Shown: positions 27,316 to 51,628, counted from the first letter of the stretch. The stretch: 55,200 nt of DNA from an uncultured Clostridia bacterium (GCA_944383255.1 CALWOY010000041.1:1-55200), one strand, 5' to 3'. Translations and numbers: made by a program. The notes: generated by a model not told the origin, from the sequence alone.

Positions 27316-27632
27316 ACGCCACACAATTTTCGCTTTGTCATTCTGAGCCGAAGGCGAAAAATCTCATCATCTTGTCATTCTGAGTCCTACTCCAACGCGT
27401 CGACCTGCGAAGAATCTCAACCCATGTCACCCTGACCGCTCCTCGCCTTGACGGAGAGGAAGGGTCTCAACTATAAGAGATCCTTCGTCAGCCGTCAAGG
27501 AAGCAGTTCTCAGGATGACACCACACTTCTAGTCATTCTGAGCGTCAGCGAAGAATCTAGATTTCTCACTACGTTCGAAATGACATATTATTTTTTGTCA
27601 TTCTGAGGAGAGTTAGCGACGTGAGAATCTCA
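27316..27632. repeat. Cluster of 7 GC-rich REP-like units (TGTCATTCTGAGCG...GAAGAATCTC family), both orientations
   Basis: Units at 27336-27366, 27372-27420, 27425-27470, 27477-27520 (inverted), 27532-27558, 27559-27585 (inverted, degenerate) and 27596-27632. Confidence 0.8.
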
Positions 27633-27676
27633 TCCACTCGCCATTGTGCCGAAAGCGCGGTTTTTGCCTAATGCAC

Positions 27677-27700
27677 AGGACTGAAAAGTCCTTTTTTTTT
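27677..27700 (+). terminator. Intrinsic terminator
   Basis: AGGACT-gaaa-AGTCCT followed by T9. Confidence 0.6.
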
Positions 27701-27784
27701 ACTAAAACTTGGGTGAAAATATTTACCCCCACACCCCATAAATAAAAAAAATTTGCATTTTTTTAAAAAATTTTGCAAAAACGC

Positions 27785-27815
27785 TTGACAAAACAATGGG
27801 GGTGGGGGGTAAAAT
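27785..27815 (+). promoter_or_regulatory. Putative promoter with a G5-T-G6 tract in the spacer
   Basis: TTGACA (27785-27790), 19-nt spacer containing GGGGGTGGGGGG, TAAAAT (27810-27815). The upstream AAATTTTGCAAAAA..GCTTGACA resembles the rplM promoter. Confidence 0.4.
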
Positions 27816-27993
27816 GTTTATAGCCAAAGGGTATTACAAAAAGCAGGTGGTATTTATCCTTTGGTTTTCCCATTTAAACTCAAAATTACAAGGCGTCTGC
27901 GTCGTTTATTGTCGCGCTTGGCTCCACAGTCATTTAGGAAACTAAACTCCAGCGTAGCCAAACGCGCCGAGCTTCGCATTAAGGTAACTCTTC

Positions 27994-28156
27994 TCATTCT
28001 GAGGCTTTTGTGTTTTGTCATTCTGAGCCTTACCCTCTGTCATTCTGAGCGTTAGCGAAGAATCTCAAAGATGTCTCACTTCGCTCGACAAGACACGGAG
28101 AGTGTTCGACACAACACATTATAGTGTCATTCTGAGCGTTAGCGAAGAATCTCAAA
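27994..28156. repeat. Second REP-like cluster forming the 5' UTR of the downstream secreted-protein gene
   Basis: Half units at 27994-28006 and 28016-28030. Identical 32-nt units TGTCATTCTGAGCGTTAGCGAAGAATCTCAAA at 28038-28069 and 28125-28156. A degenerate inverted unit lies at 28069-28095. Confidence 0.8.
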
Positions 28157-28171
28157 AAAAGGAGTAATGAA

Positions 28172-29629
28172 ATGAAAAGTAAAAGATTAAAATTACTACT
28201 TAGTTTATCTTGTTTTATGTTTTGTGTAGTGGCATTATGCTTTGGAGTATACGCAGCGACCACTGCAACGCTTACAATAAGCGGAACAATAACATTTGAG
28301 CCATACAAAATGTATGTAAATAGTATTAAGATAAATAGTATAGACGAAAATGGTTATGTAAGTAATGAAAATCTTAGTGGGTTTAATGGTTTATACTTAA
28401 ATGATTCCAGTGGACTAAGTACAATAGACTTAGGGACACAAACAGTATCTCAATCAGGGGGATTAGAGATAGAGATAAAATTTACATCTTTAGATACAAC
28501 CAAATATCAAAAGGTGACGTTTTCCTACACACAGCCAGAAGGGTATGAAGTAAGAAGCACTTCCACAATACTAAAGCCAAATCCGCAAAATCTAATACAA
28601 GGGGATGCAACAGGCACATTCAAGATATATATATCAAGCGAAACTACAACAAACCTAGATATATCTACATTAAACCTAAATATAGGGTTTGAAGATTATG
28701 GTACAAGTTTACTTCAACATGATACAACAAATGATTATTATGTAGAAATGGGGACAATACCGAATCAAATAAGCGGTACAAACTATGAAAGTGAATATAT
28801 TCGCTGGAAACTCATTGGAACACAAACAGCGGAAGCAACATCCACATCAGCATCGCAATACGCACGTTTTGATGGTACATCTGCACCATCATCTGGTACA
28901 ACAGGAGTGTTTATTCTTGAAACAAATACATTGCTTGAAAGAGATGACGGAACAGGGTATTCACTAAATGAAGTAACATTTAATCATAGTTTTCAAGGAC
29001 ATGGGAGTATGGCTAATTATTATCACTCGGGTGATGAGTGGGAAGAATATGACATACTAGCCAATGATTATGCAACAAGTACAGTCCGTCAATATATAAA
29101 TGGAAAAAACAATGTATACAAAGCAGCCACATACACATCAGCCTCAGGGAATACATCAAGCTCTGTACCAAACGAAACATCTGAGTATTCCAATATGTAC
29201 ACGGACTTTTGTATAGATACAGAGAATGATATAATATACAAGGCAATAATAGGAAGAAGTCTTCAAGATTTATATTTAGGAAACGGTGGTGGTTCTTACA
29301 ATGGACAGCCTGTAGATTTTCCAGAGCAATTGACCACATTAAATAAAGAGTGGTATACATCTTCTACAATTGATAAATTTTGGCTTTTATCTTATTATGA
29401 GGCATATTCACTCTTTTTAGCCAATACTGGTGGCTTACAAGGACAGGCAGACTCAGCTGAGAGGGAATGGCCAAATGGGGCAACTAATTATTATTGGCTG
29501 CGATCTCCTTATGTTGGGAGGAATAGCTATGCATATGCTGTGGGTCCTGAGGGCAATCTCCATAATCTTATGTGTAATGTGCATTTGAGCAGCATTGCCG
29601 CACGCGCTGCTTTCATTTTGTCTATTTAA
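28172..29629 (+). CDS. Secreted two-module protein: N-terminal beta-rich module plus C-terminal DUF6273-like domain
   Basis: 485 aa with a GGAG RBS. The signal peptide ends CFGVYA-ATT. C-terminal hallmarks are IRWKLIG, TVRQYING, KFWLLSYYEA, YYWLRSP and ARAAFIL. Confidence 0.8.
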   Translation: MKSKRLKLLLSLSCFMFCVVALCFGVYAATTATLTISGTITFEPYKMYVNSIKINSIDENGYVSNENLSGFNGLYLNDSSGLSTIDLGTQTVSQSGGLEIEIKFTSLDTTKYQKVTFSYTQPEGYEVRSTSTILKPNPQNLIQGDATGTFKIYISSETTTNLDISTLNLNIGFEDYGTSLLQHDTTNDYYVEMGTIPNQISGTNYESEYIRWKLIGTQTAEATSTSASQYARFDGTSAPSSGTTGVFILETNTLLERDDGTGYSLNEVTFNHSFQGHGSMANYYHSGDEWEEYDILANDYATSTVRQYINGKNNVYKAATYTSASGNTSSSVPNETSEYSNMYTDFCIDTENDIIYKAIIGRSLQDLYLGNGGGSYNGQPVDFPEQLTTLNKEWYTSSTIDKFWLLSYYEAYSLFLANTGGLQGQADSAEREWPNGATNYYWLRSPYVGRNSYAYAVGPEGNLHNLMCNVHLSSIAARAAFILSI

Positions 29630-29630
29630 T

Positions 29631-29661
29631 AAAAAAAATTGCTCACATTTGAGCAATTTTT
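29631..29661. terminator. Bidirectional terminator between convergent genes
   Basis: A8-TTGCTCA-catt-TGAGCAA-T5. Confidence 0.65.
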
Positions 29662-48526: not shown

Positions 48527-49927
48527 ATGACTAAAGCACAAACAAAAAACAAAAAACATAGAAGTTTTTTTAATATCCTTGAAATAATTGTGGACATAAT
48601 AGTTTATCCTGTGATTATTATATCATTTATGTCCAGTTTTTTTATGCTTGTGGCAAAAAGTAAAAATGTAATAACTCCAATATTTGGTTATACTTTTGTT
48701 CGAGTGCTTACAAATTCTATGTCGGTATATTGTCCAGAAGTACAGCGAAATTTTGTAAGTGGTGATGTTGTTGTATTAAAAACACAAGATACAATGTATG
48801 AAGTTGGAGATGTCATTGCATTTTATAATTATACCGATACAGCAGATTCACTTGCAAAGATAAATTTAACATCTGTACAATCTGGACAAGAACAAGTTTT
48901 TGATGAAGAGGGGAATCCAGTTCTTGATGAACAGGGTAATCCAACTTATAGAAATAACAACTATTTGCCAGTAAAAGATGGCGAAGGCAATACCATATTT
49001 GACCAAACCCTTTATGATAATGTTTTAAATACTGAAGTTGGCCAAAATATTCCAGGCACAAATTTTACAAAACAAAGTGTGCCAGAAAATAGACATGATT
49101 TAGACTATGTTCGTGATGTATCAAGTGTGAGAGTGTATTTTCACCAAATTGTGCAAATAAGGATTGATACATCTGGCACAATATTTTATATTACAAAAGG
49201 CACTACAAATTCTTCAACTGAAATAGTGAGAGAAGATTTGGTTGCAGGAAAATATGTTTCAACTGGTTCTTGGCTTACTGGTCTTGTCAGTTTTTGTGCG
49301 TCGACCGAAGGTATGATTTTGCTTGTAGTTGCGCCAATTTCTTTTATAGTTCTAATAGAGTTATTGTCAATACTTGAGCAAGTGAATAATATTCTTTTAG
49401 AAAAAAAAGTTATTGCTCGTGAGATGCCATTTGACAGTAAAGAGTGTGACAAGGCAAGAATAGGTATTGAAATGCGAGAAGTTGATAAAATTTTCTACTA
49501 TGATGTTATGCCCCAAGATTATAAATATGAGGTATTCGATTTCTTATGGGGCGAATTCGAAAACTCCAAAAAGAAAAAAGAGAAATATAGTTATGAAACA
49601 GCAATCGAGTCTGTTAAGGTCTATAATATGGAAGATCCATCTAAATATTATGAAGTATGGAAAAAAAGTTTTACTTCTAACAAGAAAAAACAACAAGTTG
49701 ATATAGCTTTTCAACGTTCACTTAAAGAGAAATATATTAATGTGGTGTGTACTGACTATAAAAATGAAAAACCTAGTATGCCAAAATCAAAAATAGGTAA
49801 GAAAAAAACATTTAGTGATATAAACAAAACTATAGAAAAAATAAAAGAACGTGAGAAAAAGTTGCAAAAAGACTTAAATCAAGTAGCTGATAATACAAAT
49901 TTAAAAGAGAATAAAGATGACAAATAA
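48527..49927 (+). CDS. SipW-type (ER/archaeal-type) signal peptidase I paralog 1 with large insertion and long C-terminal tail
   Basis: 466 aa. Order is TM1, then VLTNSMSV (Ser box), GDVVVLK, GDVIAFY, an insert of about 100 aa, VYFHQIV (His box), TKGTTNSS, TM2, and a Lys/Glu-rich tail of about 190 aa. Confidence 0.75.
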   Translation: MTKAQTKNKKHRSFFNILEIIVDIIVYPVIIISFMSSFFMLVAKSKNVITPIFGYTFVRVLTNSMSVYCPEVQRNFVSGDVVVLKTQDTMYEVGDVIAFYNYTDTADSLAKINLTSVQSGQEQVFDEEGNPVLDEQGNPTYRNNNYLPVKDGEGNTIFDQTLYDNVLNTEVGQNIPGTNFTKQSVPENRHDLDYVRDVSSVRVYFHQIVQIRIDTSGTIFYITKGTTNSSTEIVREDLVAGKYVSTGSWLTGLVSFCASTEGMILLVVAPISFIVLIELLSILEQVNNILLEKKVIAREMPFDSKECDKARIGIEMREVDKIFYYDVMPQDYKYEVFDFLWGEFENSKKKKEKYSYETAIESVKVYNMEDPSKYYEVWKKSFTSNKKKQQVDIAFQRSLKEKYINVVCTDYKNEKPSMPKSKIGKKKTFSDINKTIEKIKEREKKLQKDLNQVADNTNLKENKDDK

Positions 49928-50960
49928 AAAGACAAAAAATACGATTTATACACTTGCTGGTAAAATTGGGGACGTCTTTTTAATCCCTATACTTTTACTA
50001 GCACTTATTGTAACACTTATAATTTTTACACAGAACCAAAGTAATAAAGTTCCTTCTTTTTTTGGAGTTAGTGTTGTAAAAATCCTTTCTGGTTCCATGG
50101 AGAATAGTGGATTTAGAACGGGAGATAGTGTTTTTGTTACTAAAACGGATACAGATTCATTGTGGGTTGGGGATATTATAGCATTTTATCAATATCAAGA
50201 TAGTACAGATAATGTTTTTGAAAAAATTGAACTTGAAAGTGTAGATGATAGCGTAGAGATAACATTAGAAGAACCAGAAGGTCGTCGCGAAATGTCCGAT
50301 ATCACTGGAGGATCATATAGAGTTGTTTTCCATGAAATTGTTGGTGTTCTTATGGATCACACTGGTGCTAAGTATTTCAGGACAAAAGGGTCATCAAATG
50401 CGAGTGTAGATAGCATACTTATCCGTGATGATTTTGTTGTTGGCAAATATTTGAATACACCCATTTGGCTTAGAGATATTCTTCGTTGGGTTTCAAGTTC
50501 AATTGGGATGATTTGTCTTGTATGTTTACCACTTGGTATTATGATAATACTTCAATCCTTGGCTCTCATTGAACAAATTAATTTTATGTATGTAGAGAAA
50601 AAACTCATGAACGGCTCTATGGGTTGGCAAGAAAGTGAAGCTCAGAGATTAATAAAAACCGGAGAAATGGAAGTCCTGTGCCGTATAGTTATGTTTCCCA
50701 AGGTGCCAGATGACGAAAAAGAAGATGCTTTAGATGAAATTTGGAAGTTTGGAGATAAACCAACTAATAACCAAAAGGACTTATTACATCTTGCAATGCT
50801 CTCATCTAAATTTCTTAATACAAAAGGTCAAAAAGCATATTTTGAATTTTGGAAACAAAATTTGAGATTAAAATCGGATATAAAAGCCTTGGATGAGCAG
50901 CTTCAAATTTTGTCTATTAATGAACATATAAATAAAGAAAAAACTAGCAAAAAAATTTAG
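49917..50960 (+). CDS. SipW-type signal peptidase I paralog 2 with C-terminal tail
   Basis: 347 aa, overlapping paralog 1 by 11 nt. Order is TM1, ILSGSMENS, GDSVFV, GDIIAFY, VVFHEIV, TKGSSNAS, TM2, and a tail of about 130 aa related to that of paralog 1. Confidence 0.8.
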   Translation: MTNKKTKNTIYTLAGKIGDVFLIPILLLALIVTLIIFTQNQSNKVPSFFGVSVVKILSGSMENSGFRTGDSVFVTKTDTDSLWVGDIIAFYQYQDSTDNVFEKIELESVDDSVEITLEEPEGRREMSDITGGSYRVVFHEIVGVLMDHTGAKYFRTKGSSNASVDSILIRDDFVVGKYLNTPIWLRDILRWVSSSIGMICLVCLPLGIMIILQSLALIEQINFMYVEKKLMNGSMGWQESEAQRLIKTGEMEVLCRIVMFPKVPDDEKEDALDEIWKFGDKPTNNQKDLLHLAMLSSKFLNTKGQKAYFEFWKQNLRLKSDIKALDEQLQILSINEHINKEKTSKKI

Positions 50961-51017
50961 TGTGTAAAAATTGATTTTTGTTACATACTAACATTGTTAA
51001 AAAAATGCTAGTTTTTT
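50938..51017 (+). promoter_or_regulatory. Long-range hairpin with trailing T-run between the peptidase genes and the secreted-protein gene
   Basis: AAAAAACTAGCA (50938-50949) pairs with TGCTAGTTTTTT (51006-51017). The inner stem is TAGTGTGTAA/TTACATACTA. It spans the stop codon of paralog 2. Confidence 0.4.
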
Positions 51018-51040
51018 TAATTTAAAAAAAGGAGAAAATT

Positions 51041-51628
51041 ATGAAAAGAAAATTTAAATTATTTGCAACGGTGGCATCGCTTTGTTTATCTGTGGCACTT
51101 ATGGCATTCGGCGTATATGCTGCAACTTCAGTTTCTTATTCGGTAAATGGTACAGTTTCATATAATATGACTGATGTACTGGTTACAGTAACCATGCAAA
51201 CTGAGTATGTAACGGATGAGCATCAGGGACACTCTGATGGTGCGGTAACAGAACTTAGTTACGCAAACACACAACAAGTTGATACTTACACATCTTACAA
51301 TACTGGAACTAACCTTCCAGAAGGAAACGGTACACATACTGCGGATGCCGACATCAACCTCAACACTTCAAGTGCATGGAAATTGATTATCACTGTTTCC
51401 ACTATAAATCCGGGAGGAGTGGAAGTTGCAATTAATGATGCTAGTTTTGGACTTGCTGGAACTGAAAACTTTGCTGTTTTGGCAGATGTTTCAAATTCTT
51501 ATGAAACTTTAATTGAAGAAGATGGGAGTGCTCAATTTGTTTATTATGTATATTTAAAAGACACAACTGTGGCAATAGGGAGTGCAAACTTCTCGATTAA
51601 TCTCAACATAACACAATATACCGCATAA
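51041..51628 (+). CDS. Small secreted Thr/Ser/Asn/Val-rich protein; candidate SipW substrate (TasA/camelysin-like role)
   Basis: 195 aa. AGGAG RBS. The signal peptide ends AFGVYA-ATS. The mature part has no Cys and ends INLNITQYTA. Confidence 0.75.
   Translation: MKRKFKLFATVASLCLSVALMAFGVYAATSVSYSVNGTVSYNMTDVLVTVTMQTEYVTDEHQGHSDGAVTELSYANTQQVDTYTSYNTGTNLPEGNGTHTADADINLNTSSAWKLIITVSTINPGGVEVAINDASFGLAGTENFAVLADVSNSYETLIEEDGSAQFVYYVYLKDTTVAIGSANFSINLNITQYTA

What the first reader, a model, noticed from the sequence alone, without database searches (positions are those of the whole stretch)
28172..29629. A distant 485-aa secreted protein shares the FGVYAAT leader and terminal LNLNI strand with the SipW-adjacent protein, fused to a DUF6273-like domain
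Seen: the leader MKSKRLKLLLSLSCFMFCVVALCFGVYAATTATLTISGTITF parallels MKRKFKLFATVASLCLSVALMAFGVYAATSVSYSVNGTVSY of the 195-aa protein at 51041. The heptad FGVYAAT is identical, followed by x-S/N-G-T-[IV]-[TS]-[FY]. The first roughly 180 mature residues end in STLNLNIGFEDY. The 195-aa protein ends in ANFSINLNITQYTA. The rest of the protein shows DUF6273-type hallmarks (IRWKLIG, KFWLLSYYEA, YYWLRSP, ARAAFIL). Inference: the N-terminal module is a paralog of the small protein. This protein could therefore be a second client of the SipW pair. One possibility is a tip or adaptor subunit that attaches a DUF6273 head to the same polymer.
Basis: partly seen in the sequence, partly recalled or inferred. 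Interest (0 to 1): 0.6.

Follow-up and report, generated by a model that had tools for sequence, protein, structure and literature searches.

The report
Lectin-like surface protein with SipW-type tag
This 485-residue secreted protein of an uncultured gut Clostridia bacterium carries a sugar-binding-type head behind a special N-terminal export tag, shared with at least ten other surface proteins and found only in genomes with a SipW-type signal peptidase, but its first domain is not a detectable copy of the small SipW-adjacent protein.

Summary
ORF 28172..29629 encodes 485 aa. Its leader and first mature beta-strand (residues 1-42) match the 195-aa protein at 51041 (BLASTP E 7e-7), and its C-terminal part is DUF6273.

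- The similarity stops after the first 27 mature residues. Without that strand, profile comparison of the N-module with the small-protein family gives probability 2.9%.
- Residues 43-181 are a separate "neck" beta-sandwich that always precedes DUF6273 in this family.
- Some relatives of about 600 aa do carry a true small-protein-type domain between tag and neck (probability 95.6%).
- FGVY[AS]A plus the strand is neither a generic signal peptide nor a sign of paralogy. It is a portable tag on at least 11 ORFs of this ~1-Mb genome, eight of which are DUF6273 paralogs or fragments. In relatives it also sits on BspA-type LRR proteins.
- All 15 tag-positive genomes among 101 of the family have a SipW-type peptidase (Fisher p = 1e-9). 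Small tag genes lie directly beside sipW in several genera.

Best reading: a SipW-processed, lectin-like adhesin from a diversifying multigene family. The fibre-tip or adaptor idea remains untested.

The parts
28172..29629 (+). Gene for the 485-aa secreted protein (P0001): tag, neck beta-sandwich and DUF6273 head
   Evidence: ORF list and translation. AlphaFold2 model has mean pLDDT 87.8 and pTM 0.87. More than 190 homologues of 430-690 aa were found, mostly carrying PF19789.
28160..28164 (+). Ribosome-binding site AGGAG, 7 nt before the ATG
   Evidence: Read directly from the sequence.
28172..28255 (+). Signal peptide, residues 1-28 (MKSKRLK, hydrophobic core, FGVYA). Predicted cleavage VYA|A by the -3/-1 rule
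   Evidence: Helix 4-30 in the model. The leader HMM gives E 5e-18. The cleavage site is inferred, not shown.
28256..28297 (+). First mature beta-strand, the second half of the tag: residues 29-42, ATTATLTISGTITF
   Evidence: Aligns with the small-family mature N-terminus (hhalign E 1.1e-5). Residues 27-36 have pLDDT below 50, so they are not packed confidently on the neck.
28298..28714 (+). Neck (N-type) beta-sandwich, residues 43-181, ending in STLNLNIGFEDY
   Evidence: Strands 47-177 in the model. Equals module 2 of the ~600-aa relatives (hhalign probability 100%, E 1e-41). Not detectably related to the small-protein family (probability 1-3%).
28733..29626 (+). DUF6273 head with a C-type-lectin-like fold, residues 188-485
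   Evidence: Pfam PF19789, 25.7 bits against a cut-off of 23.5. Foldseek top hit is 9qa6, the T. ramosa IgA peptidase, whose N-terminal domain is DUF6273 (E 2.7e-5). The sequence profile also hits 9qa6 (E 0.0016). The fold assignment is from PMC10743442.
29510..29602 (+). Hypervariable C-terminal hairpin of the head, residues 447-477, between the conserved WLRSP and AARAAF
   Evidence: Highest column entropy of the domain, about 2.5 bits. It differs among all paralogs of the genome.
29634..29661 (.). Hairpin with T runs on both sides, a terminator-like site shared with the convergent DUF1858 gene
   Evidence: Terminator scan.
27822..27880 (+). Conserved hairpin element about 300-350 nt upstream, in the putative 5' leader
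   Evidence: The same element lies upstream of the C42 paralog and of the ortholog in L002. No Rfam family matches it. Its function is unknown.
51041..51628 (+). The 195-aa small tag protein (P0002), the comparison partner
48527..50960 (+). Two tandem long-tailed SipW-like signal peptidase genes (48527..49927 and 49917..50960)
   Evidence: NCBIfam NF046067 and TIGR02228. Ser (SGSME, TNSMS) and His (FHEIV, FHQIV) motifs are readable.

Best explanation
**What it is**

The gene encodes a secreted, adhesin-like protein with four parts:
- a dedicated signal peptide ending in FGVYA|A;
- a conserved first mature beta-strand with alternating hydrophobic residues around a fixed glycine;
- an Ig-like 'neck' beta-sandwich (residues 43-181);
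- a DUF6273 head with a C-type-lectin-like fold (residues 188-485), whose C-terminal hairpin is hypervariable.

**The tag**

Signal peptide plus first strand form a portable N-terminal tag. In this lineage the tag marks a whole set of surface proteins:
- small beta-sandwich proteins encoded beside sipW;
- at least eight DUF6273 paralogs or fragments in this genome;
- BspA-type LRR proteins in relatives.

**Most likely mechanism (inferred)**
1. The tag directs Sec export.
2. The SipW-type peptidases (the tandem pair at 48527-50960, or the third copy on contig C77) cleave it.
3. The lectin-like head is released or displayed and binds a glycan or protein ligand in the gut.
4. Paralog expansion provides different binding specificities.

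**Shown**
- The architecture.
- The spread of the tag.
- Its co-occurrence and adjacency with sipW.
- The absence of detectable homology between the neck and the small protein.

**Inferred**
- Cleavage by SipW.
- Ligand binding.
- Surface display.
For: **Tag shared, domains not**
- BLASTP aligns only residues 1-42.
- hhalign aligns only the first 27 mature residues (E 1.1e-5). Without that strand the probability is 2.9%.
- Neck equals module 2 of the long relatives (probability 100%).
- Module 1 of P0195-type relatives equals the small-protein domain (probability 95.6%, E 1.1e-8; hmmsearch E 5e-7).

**Tag is a distinct class**
- 11 of about 83 ORFs with an N-terminal signal or anchor carry it. 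About 28 others have a lipobox and the rest are unrelated.
- A canonical bacterial signal peptidase I is also present.

**The leader peptide is under selection**
- P0002 and the two C54 copies have the same 28-residue leader peptide (MKRKFKL...FGVYAA), while their DNA over those codons is 86-87% identical. All the differences are therefore synonymous.
- The leader is invariant across small proteins down to about 28% identity.

**Link to SipW**
- 15 of 15 tag-positive genomes have a SipW-type gene, against 16 of 86 tag-negative genomes (Fisher p = 1e-9).
- The small tag gene is followed directly by sipW in L013, L014, L015 and L021.
- A DUF6273 gene lies 3 kb from sipW-sipW-small in L056.

**Head**
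- Pfam, Foldseek and sequence profile all point to DUF6273, a C-type-lectin-like fold (PMC10743442).
- It has a hypervariable hairpin.

**Multigene family**
- 8 copies in this genome and about 11 or more per related MAG.
- Nearly all complete copies carry the tag.
- Other clients of the tag are BspA-type LRR proteins.
Against: - No experiment shows cleavage or the peptidase responsible. The canonical LepB-type enzyme could cleave VYA|A.
- The NCBIfam model for SipW-cognate signal peptides (TIGR04088, a model I recall from memory) did not appear among the hits at E <= 1.
- P0001 lies 19 kb from the sipW pair and has no clients or peptidase beside it.
- No ligand is known for any DUF6273 domain.
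- No cell-wall or membrane anchor is recognisable, so 'surface display' lacks a retention mechanism unless the tag itself provides one.
- 16 SipW-positive genomes lack a detectable tag, so the link runs one way only.
Confidence: 0.62

Rival explanations
1. **Fibre tip or adaptor.** The small SipW-adjacent proteins polymerise by donor-strand exchange. The conserved first strand of P0001 is a donor strand that plugs the lectin-like head onto that fibre. Known parallels are TapA and TasA, or the FimH pilin and lectin domains with FimA.
For: - The first strand is the most conserved mature segment across very different passengers. It has the alternating hydrophobic pattern with a central Gly that is typical of donor strands.
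- P0001 has lost, or never had, the S-type domain to which the strand belongs in P0195-type relatives, yet it keeps the strand. There AlphaFold2 does not pack it confidently (residues 27-36 below pLDDT 50).
- P0195-type relatives fuse a true small-protein domain to neck and head, as a pilin-domain adhesin would.
- P0002 and the N-module of P0001 both hit self-complemented FimA as their best beta-sandwich match.
- TapA and TasA sharing SipW processing and a complementing N-terminal strand is a published precedent (PMC10151520 and PMC9674648, listed; read from titles and abstracts only).
Against: - No polymer has been shown for the small proteins.
- Foldseek matches to FimA are weak (TM 0.33-0.38, rmsd 9-14 A). 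TasA is not among the top 50 hits.
- In the P0002 model the strand forms a tight hairpin with the next strand at high confidence (E33-44 and E48-57), as an ordinary first strand would.
- A genome has 10 or more clients, up to 2213 aa. That fits a general sorting tag as well as it fits fibre plug-ins.
- No multimer prediction could be run.
Confidence: 0.22
2. **Uncleaved signal-anchor.** The conserved hydrophobic segment stays in the membrane as an N-terminal anchor. It is conserved because it contacts the membrane parts of the long-tailed SipW-like proteins or a sorting machine. The extracellular strand is just the start of the ectodomain.
For: - The whole n- and h-region is almost invariant in the small family, not only the cleavage site. 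That is unusual for a cleaved signal peptide.
- No other anchor (LPXTG, lipobox or wall-binding domain) is visible in P0001 or in the LRR clients.
Against: - V at -3 and A at -1, followed by A, is a good signal peptidase I site in all members.
- The partner genes keep the Ser and His catalytic motifs.
- The h-region of about 18 residues, with a helix-breaking Gly near its end, is typical of a signal peptide.
Confidence: 0.12
3. **No functional link.** The leader similarity is a leftover of recombination or gene conversion that spreads a 5' cassette among unrelated genes.
For: The two C54 copies share a 99% identical leader and upstream DNA. Paralogs sit at contig ends, as expected of repeated DNA.
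Against: - Leader DNA of P0001 and P0002 is only about 43% identical in an ungapped comparison.
- Between P0002 and the C54 copies the leader DNA is 86-87% identical while the leader peptide is the same, so the changes are synonymous. That is purifying selection on the peptide, not recent DNA transfer.
- The tag is kept across genera and families, always together with sipW.
Confidence: 0.04

Closest known systems
Bacillus subtilis tapA-sipW-tasA: SipW with its cognate substrates TasA and TapA
   Same: - A second, ER/archaeal-type signal peptidase is encoded beside a small secreted beta-rich protein.
- More than one substrate shares a special leader ending in G-x-aromatic-A|A (TasA has GGGTWA|AF, from my own memory).
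- More than one substrate also shares a similar first mature strand.
- The accessory protein TapA complements TasA through that strand (PMC10151520 and PMC9674648).
   Different: - There was no sequence or Foldseek match to TasA/camelysin.
- The NCBIfam SipW-cognate leader model (TIGR04088, recalled from memory) was not among the hits.
- The peptidases here are a tandem pair with long C-terminal tails.
- The client set is large, at least 11 per ~1-Mb genome. It includes lectin-like and BspA-LRR proteins, not just one fibre subunit and its partner.
Pfam DUF6273 (PF19789) domains: N-terminal domain of the Thomasclavelia ramosa IgA peptidase (PDB 9qa6) and phage DGR targets ('tentaclins')
   Same: - Same domain by Pfam, by sequence profile and by Foldseek.
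- It has a C-type-lectin-like fold with a variable hairpin on the surface (PMC10743442).
- It occurs in gut Firmicutes and their phages.
   Different: - Here the domain is C-terminal, behind a SipW-type tag and an Ig-like neck.
- Variation comes from paralog expansion. The assembly has no reverse transcriptase and no template repeat.
- The protein has no peptidase domain and no phage context.
Chaperone-usher two-domain adhesins (FimH with FimA)
   Same: - An Ig-like domain is combined with a lectin-type head.
- A short N-terminal strand has alternating hydrophobic residues and a Gly.
- FimA is the best beta-sandwich match of both proteins.
   Different: - The host is an uncultured Clostridia lineage, and no chaperone or usher gene lies beside the genes read here.
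- The domain order is reversed.
- TM-scores of 0.33-0.38 are too low to claim membership.
Dedicated protein-sorting tags: LPXTG/sortase, PEP-CTERM/exosortase, YSIRK-type signal peptides (compared from my own knowledge)
   Same: A short, strongly conserved terminal tag sits on many otherwise unrelated surface proteins. It co-occurs across genomes with one dedicated processing enzyme.
   Different: The tag here is N-terminal. It combines a signal peptide with the first mature strand. The enzyme is a SipW-type signal peptidase.

Membership tests
Pfam DUF6273 (PF19789) | Score above the Pfam gathering cut-off | tested here: met
   25.7 bits against a cut-off of 23.5, E 1.2e-5, residues 298-483. 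Eight ORFs of the genome match.
Pfam DUF6273 (PF19789) | Fold like a solved DUF6273 domain | tested here: met
   Foldseek top hit is 9qa6 (E 2.7e-5, 324 columns). Its N-terminal domain is DUF6273 (PMC12402451). The profile also hits 9qa6 (E 0.0016).
SipW-cognate signal peptide class (TasA/TapA type) | Match to the curated leader model (NCBIfam TIGR04088; model name recalled from memory) | tested here: not met
   This model was not among the NCBIfam hits at E <= 1 for P0001 or P0002.
SipW-cognate signal peptide class (TasA/TapA type) | Basic n-region, hydrophobic core, small residues at -3/-1, and a class-specific motif before the cut | tested here: met
   MKSKRLK, an 18-residue core and FGVYA|A. 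The motif is conserved in 166 leaders.
SipW-cognate signal peptide class (TasA/TapA type) | Occurs only with a SipW-type peptidase, and some members are encoded beside it | tested here: met
   15 of 15 tag-positive genomes are SipW-positive, Fisher p = 1e-9. Adjacency is seen in L013, L014, L015, L021 and the window.
SipW-cognate signal peptide class (TasA/TapA type) | Cleavage depends on SipW | not testable with these tools
   Needs expression with and without the peptidase genes, followed by N-terminal analysis.
Small SipW-adjacent protein family (S-type domain of P0002) | Significant profile similarity of the mature domain beyond the first strand | tested here: not met
   hhalign gives probability 2.9%, E 0.016 for P0001 residues 45-185. 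The neck profile against the small family gives probability 1.1%. hmmsearch gives no significant hit. Positive control: module 1 of P0195-type relatives gives probability 95.6%.
Small SipW-adjacent protein family (S-type domain of P0002) | Same three-dimensional fold by direct superposition | tested here: inconclusive
   - Both are 8-9-strand beta-sandwiches with similar strand spacing.
- Both list FimA entries among their best matches.
TasA/camelysin (Peptidase_M73) | Sequence or fold match to TasA | tested here: not met
   No Pfam hit. No PDB sequence hit for the small family. TasA is absent from the top 50 Foldseek hits of both models.
DGR target protein | A reverse transcriptase and a template repeat matching the variable region | tested here: not met
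   No RVT_1 match in the assembly, which is 84% complete. blastn of the gene finds only paralogous genes and no non-coding copy.
Chaperone-usher pilins | Pilin fold at convincing similarity | tested here: inconclusive
   FimA matches have E 3e-5 to 2e-2 but TM only 0.33-0.38 and rmsd 9-14 A.

The most novel reading that the evidence does not exclude
The tag's first mature strand is a donor strand. After SipW cleavage it plugs interchangeable adhesin heads into a fibre built from the small SipW-adjacent subunits. The heads would be the DUF6273 lectin-like domains here and BspA-type LRR arrays in relatives. This would be a modular adhesin pilus of reduced-genome gut Clostridia that works like chaperone-usher or TasA/TapA strand complementation but is built from unrelated parts.
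Probability: 0.2. Interest if true: 0.85.

Novelty: new variant of a known kind. Interest (0 to 1): 0.5.

Why it matters
**Scale.** These bacteria have genomes of about 1 Mb. Even so, each carries roughly ten or more genes with this one tag, including eight or more lectin-like DUF6273 proteins. Surface binding must therefore be central to how they live in the gut.

**What the tag offers.**
- It is a simple sequence handle for listing the whole surface repertoire of an uncultured lineage.
- It links DUF6273, a domain of unknown function also used by gut phages and by an IgA protease, to a dedicated export route.
- It widens the SipW-TasA idea from one fibre subunit to a general sorting system.

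**If strand donation is confirmed.** It would show a new way for Gram-positive-type cells to mount exchangeable adhesins.

Tried and rejected
- **DGR diversification of the hypervariable hairpin.** Rejected: no reverse transcriptase and no template repeat.
- **TasA/camelysin homology.** No Pfam, PDB-sequence or Foldseek support.
- **Lipoprotein reading of the conserved Cys in the leader.** Rejected by eye: SLC and LSC do not fit the lipobox, and the Cys lies too close to the N-terminus.
- **'LNLNI' as evidence of homology.** Rejected. P0001's strand belongs to the neck's ISGLxVSFEE strand. P0002's strand aligns with TDFSIDINL of the S-type module of P0195.
- **Neck-type modules standing alone as small SipW-adjacent proteins.** None found. 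The small ORFs that the A2 profile reached up to position ~145 gave no significant score once the leader was removed.
- **Rfam match for the upstream region.** None credible.
- **Phase-variation tract at the frame change in L056 and L071.** No homopolymer is visible.
- **Not used.** The search of protein representatives and the third homologous-protein search, because the 101-genome sample already answered the spread question.

Full report
**1. What is in the sequence**

ORF 28172..29629 (+) encodes the 485-aa protein P0001. ORF 51041..51628 (+) encodes the 195-aa protein P0002. The quoted strings are all present.
- FGVYAAT is at residues 24-30 of P0001 and 23-29 of P0002.
- In both it is followed by a strand in which hydrophobic residues alternate around a fixed Gly: TLTISGTITF in P0001 and VSYSVNGTVSY in P0002.
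- BLASTP aligns residues 1-42 with 1-41 (E 7e-7) and nothing else.
- Pfam finds DUF6273 at residues 298-483, above the gathering cut-off.
- The two genes before P0002 are SipW-like. The second passes the TIGR02228 cut-off. Both keep readable Ser and His motifs.
- The gene has an AGGAG ribosome-binding site 7 nt upstream and a hairpin terminator right after the stop.
- Its neighbours are unrelated housekeeping genes: FloA upstream, and DUF1858 plus DnaC/DnaB-like genes downstream. The ortholog in a 196-kb metagenome contig has the same downstream neighbours.

**2. How far the similarity to the small protein goes**

I collected both families: 192 hits each, none with a functional name, the few source names reading only 'hypothetical protein'.
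- Profile comparison of mature P0001 residues 29-185 with the mature small family aligns only the first 27 residues (E 1.1e-5).
- With that strand removed from both sides, the probability falls to 2.9%.

The longer relatives explain why.
- In all of them the stretch that corresponds to P0001 residues 45-185 is the module directly before DUF6273 (probability 100%, E 1e-41). I call it the neck.
- P0195-type relatives of about 600 aa have, between tag and neck, a domain that matches the small-protein family even without leader and first strand (probability 95.6%, E 1.1e-8; hmmsearch E 5e-7; whole protein against A1 probability 98.2%).
- P0158-type relatives instead have a second neck-like module there.

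The architectures are therefore:

| Protein type | Architecture |
|---|---|
| Small proteins | tag-S |
| P0195 type | tag-S-N-DUF6273 |
| P0158 type | tag-N'-N-DUF6273 |
| P0001 | tag-N-DUF6273 |

- The shared 'NLNI' at the ends is not a family feature. P0001's last neck strand belongs to the ISGLxVSFEE consensus. P0002's last strand aligns with TDFSIDINL of the S-type module.

**3. Structures**

- AlphaFold2 gives confident models: P0001 pLDDT 87.8 and pTM 0.87, P0002 pLDDT 86.2.
- P0001 shows a signal helix (4-30), an ill-placed stretch (27-36, pLDDT below 50), a beta-sandwich (47-177) and then the head.
- Both beta-sandwiches have 8-9 strands with similar spacing. Both list self-complemented FimA among their best PDB matches, but at TM 0.33-0.38.
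- That is compatible with a common Ig-like fold but does not prove it.
- The best PDB match of P0001 overall is 9qa6, the T. ramosa IgA peptidase. Its N-terminal domain is DUF6273 (PMC12402451). The sequence profile also finds it.
- DUF6273 has been described as C-type-lectin-like, with a variable surface hairpin, in phage DGR targets (PMC10743442).

**4. The tag is a class signal**

- A leader HMM finds 11 ORFs in this 969-kb, 84%-complete assembly. These are three small proteins, P0001, the C42 paralog, three N-terminal fragments at contig ends and three weaker variants.
- Eight ORFs carry DUF6273, several cut by contig ends.
- A crude scan finds about 83 ORFs with an N-terminal signal or anchor. 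Of these, 11 have this tag, about 28 have a lipobox and the rest are unrelated.
- A canonical bacterial signal peptidase I is present as well.
- So FGVY[AS]A is not the organism's generic signal ending. But it does not mark paralogy of the adjoining domain either.
- P0002 and the two C54 copies share the same 28-residue leader peptide, while their DNA over those codons is 86-87% identical. All the differences are synonymous, which means selection on the peptide.
- Across the small family the leader is almost invariant while the mature part falls to about 28% identity.

**5. Link to SipW**

- In an even sample of 101 genomes of the same family (genomes of 0.8-1.6 Mb), 15 have tag-bearing ORFs. 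These genomes mostly have 4-14 profile matches each, some only 1-2, on ORFs of 78 to 2213 aa.
- All 15 have a SipW-type gene, against 16 of the other 86 (Fisher p = 1e-9).
- The small tag gene is followed directly by sipW in four fetched loci, two of them from another family of the order.
- In one MAG a DUF6273 gene lies 3 kb upstream of sipW-sipW-small (L056).
- This agrees with the earlier follow-up on 48527-51628.

**6. The family**

- A scan of species-representative genomes returned 56 loci, nearly all labelled uncultured Clostridia MAGs (one 'uncultured Firmicutes'). One is from a water-deer colon. The source of the others is not stated in the record titles. Single MAGs hold about 11 or more copies.
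- Nearly every copy whose N-terminus is on the contig has the tag.
- Large tag-bearing proteins of relatives carry BspA-type LRR_5 arrays. The C91 paralog of this genome continues after DUF6273 into a repeat that reads like the same type of LRR, judged by eye.
- Inside the head, the stretch 447-477 between WLRSP and AARAAF is the most variable.
- No reverse transcriptase and no template repeat exist in the assembly, so the variation is between paralogs and not DGR-driven.

**7. Reading**

- *Best explanation (0.62).* A SipW-processed, lectin-like adhesin of a multigene family. What it shares with the small protein is a portable export and processing tag.
In its favour: P0001 keeps the strand although it lacks the S-type domain that owns the strand in relatives, the model does not pack it, the strand has a donor-strand-like pattern, and S-N-DUF6273 fusions exist. 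Against it: no evidence of any polymer, weak fold matches, and a client set so broad that a plain sorting tag explains it equally well.
- *Uncleaved anchor (0.12) and recombination leftover (0.04).* Both are less likely.

**8. Limits**

- There is no experimental data.
- No multimer prediction and no model superposition could be done.
- The assembly is fragmented exactly at these paralogs.

Noticed in passing
window 27822-27880 (+); G000 contig C42 around 7183 (-); L002 9835-9890: A conserved hairpin with loop AGCAGGTGGTA and 3' tail GGTTyTCCCATT lies about 140-430 nt upstream of two DUF6273 paralogs and of the ortholog in a related contig. The stem sequences differ between the copies. No Rfam family matches it, and RNAalifold on three copies found no fully compensated pair. 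It could be a regulatory RNA or a protein-binding site for this gene family.
   Followed up: partly
window 27316-28156: The 1-kb non-coding stretch upstream of the gene is packed with GC-rich REP/MITE-like units (TGTCATTCTGAG ... GAAGAATCTC). Two lie between the putative promoter at about 27786 and the start codon, so they would be part of the 5' leader. The ortholog in L002 has a short intergenic region without most of them.
   Followed up: no
L056 1-2014 and L071 1-1993 (same MAG, two contigs): A tag-S ORF (232 aa) overlaps a DUF6273 ORF (about 450 aa) in another frame, with identical DNA on both contigs and no homopolymer at the junction. This is either a frameshifted ~680-aa gene or an assembly duplicate.
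   Followed up: partly
G000 contig C77 18572-19519 (-): A third SipW-like gene (502-aa open frame, 31% identical to the 347-aa one) lies outside the window, with no tag-bearing gene detected beside it.
   Followed up: no
G000 contig C91 2-1798 (+): One DUF6273 paralog continues for about 240 residues after the AARAAF end into a repeat that reads like a BspA-type LRR (judged by eye, not scanned against Pfam). The lectin-like and LRR modules are therefore apparently combined in one protein.
   Followed up: no
G000 contig C29 15763-19486 (-): Two ORFs (199 and 422 aa) have weaker variants of the tag (LLAFSVYAHL..., FWVFSATEISYNIGGSIEY) and lie close together. They are possibly an older branch of the client set.
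   Followed up: no
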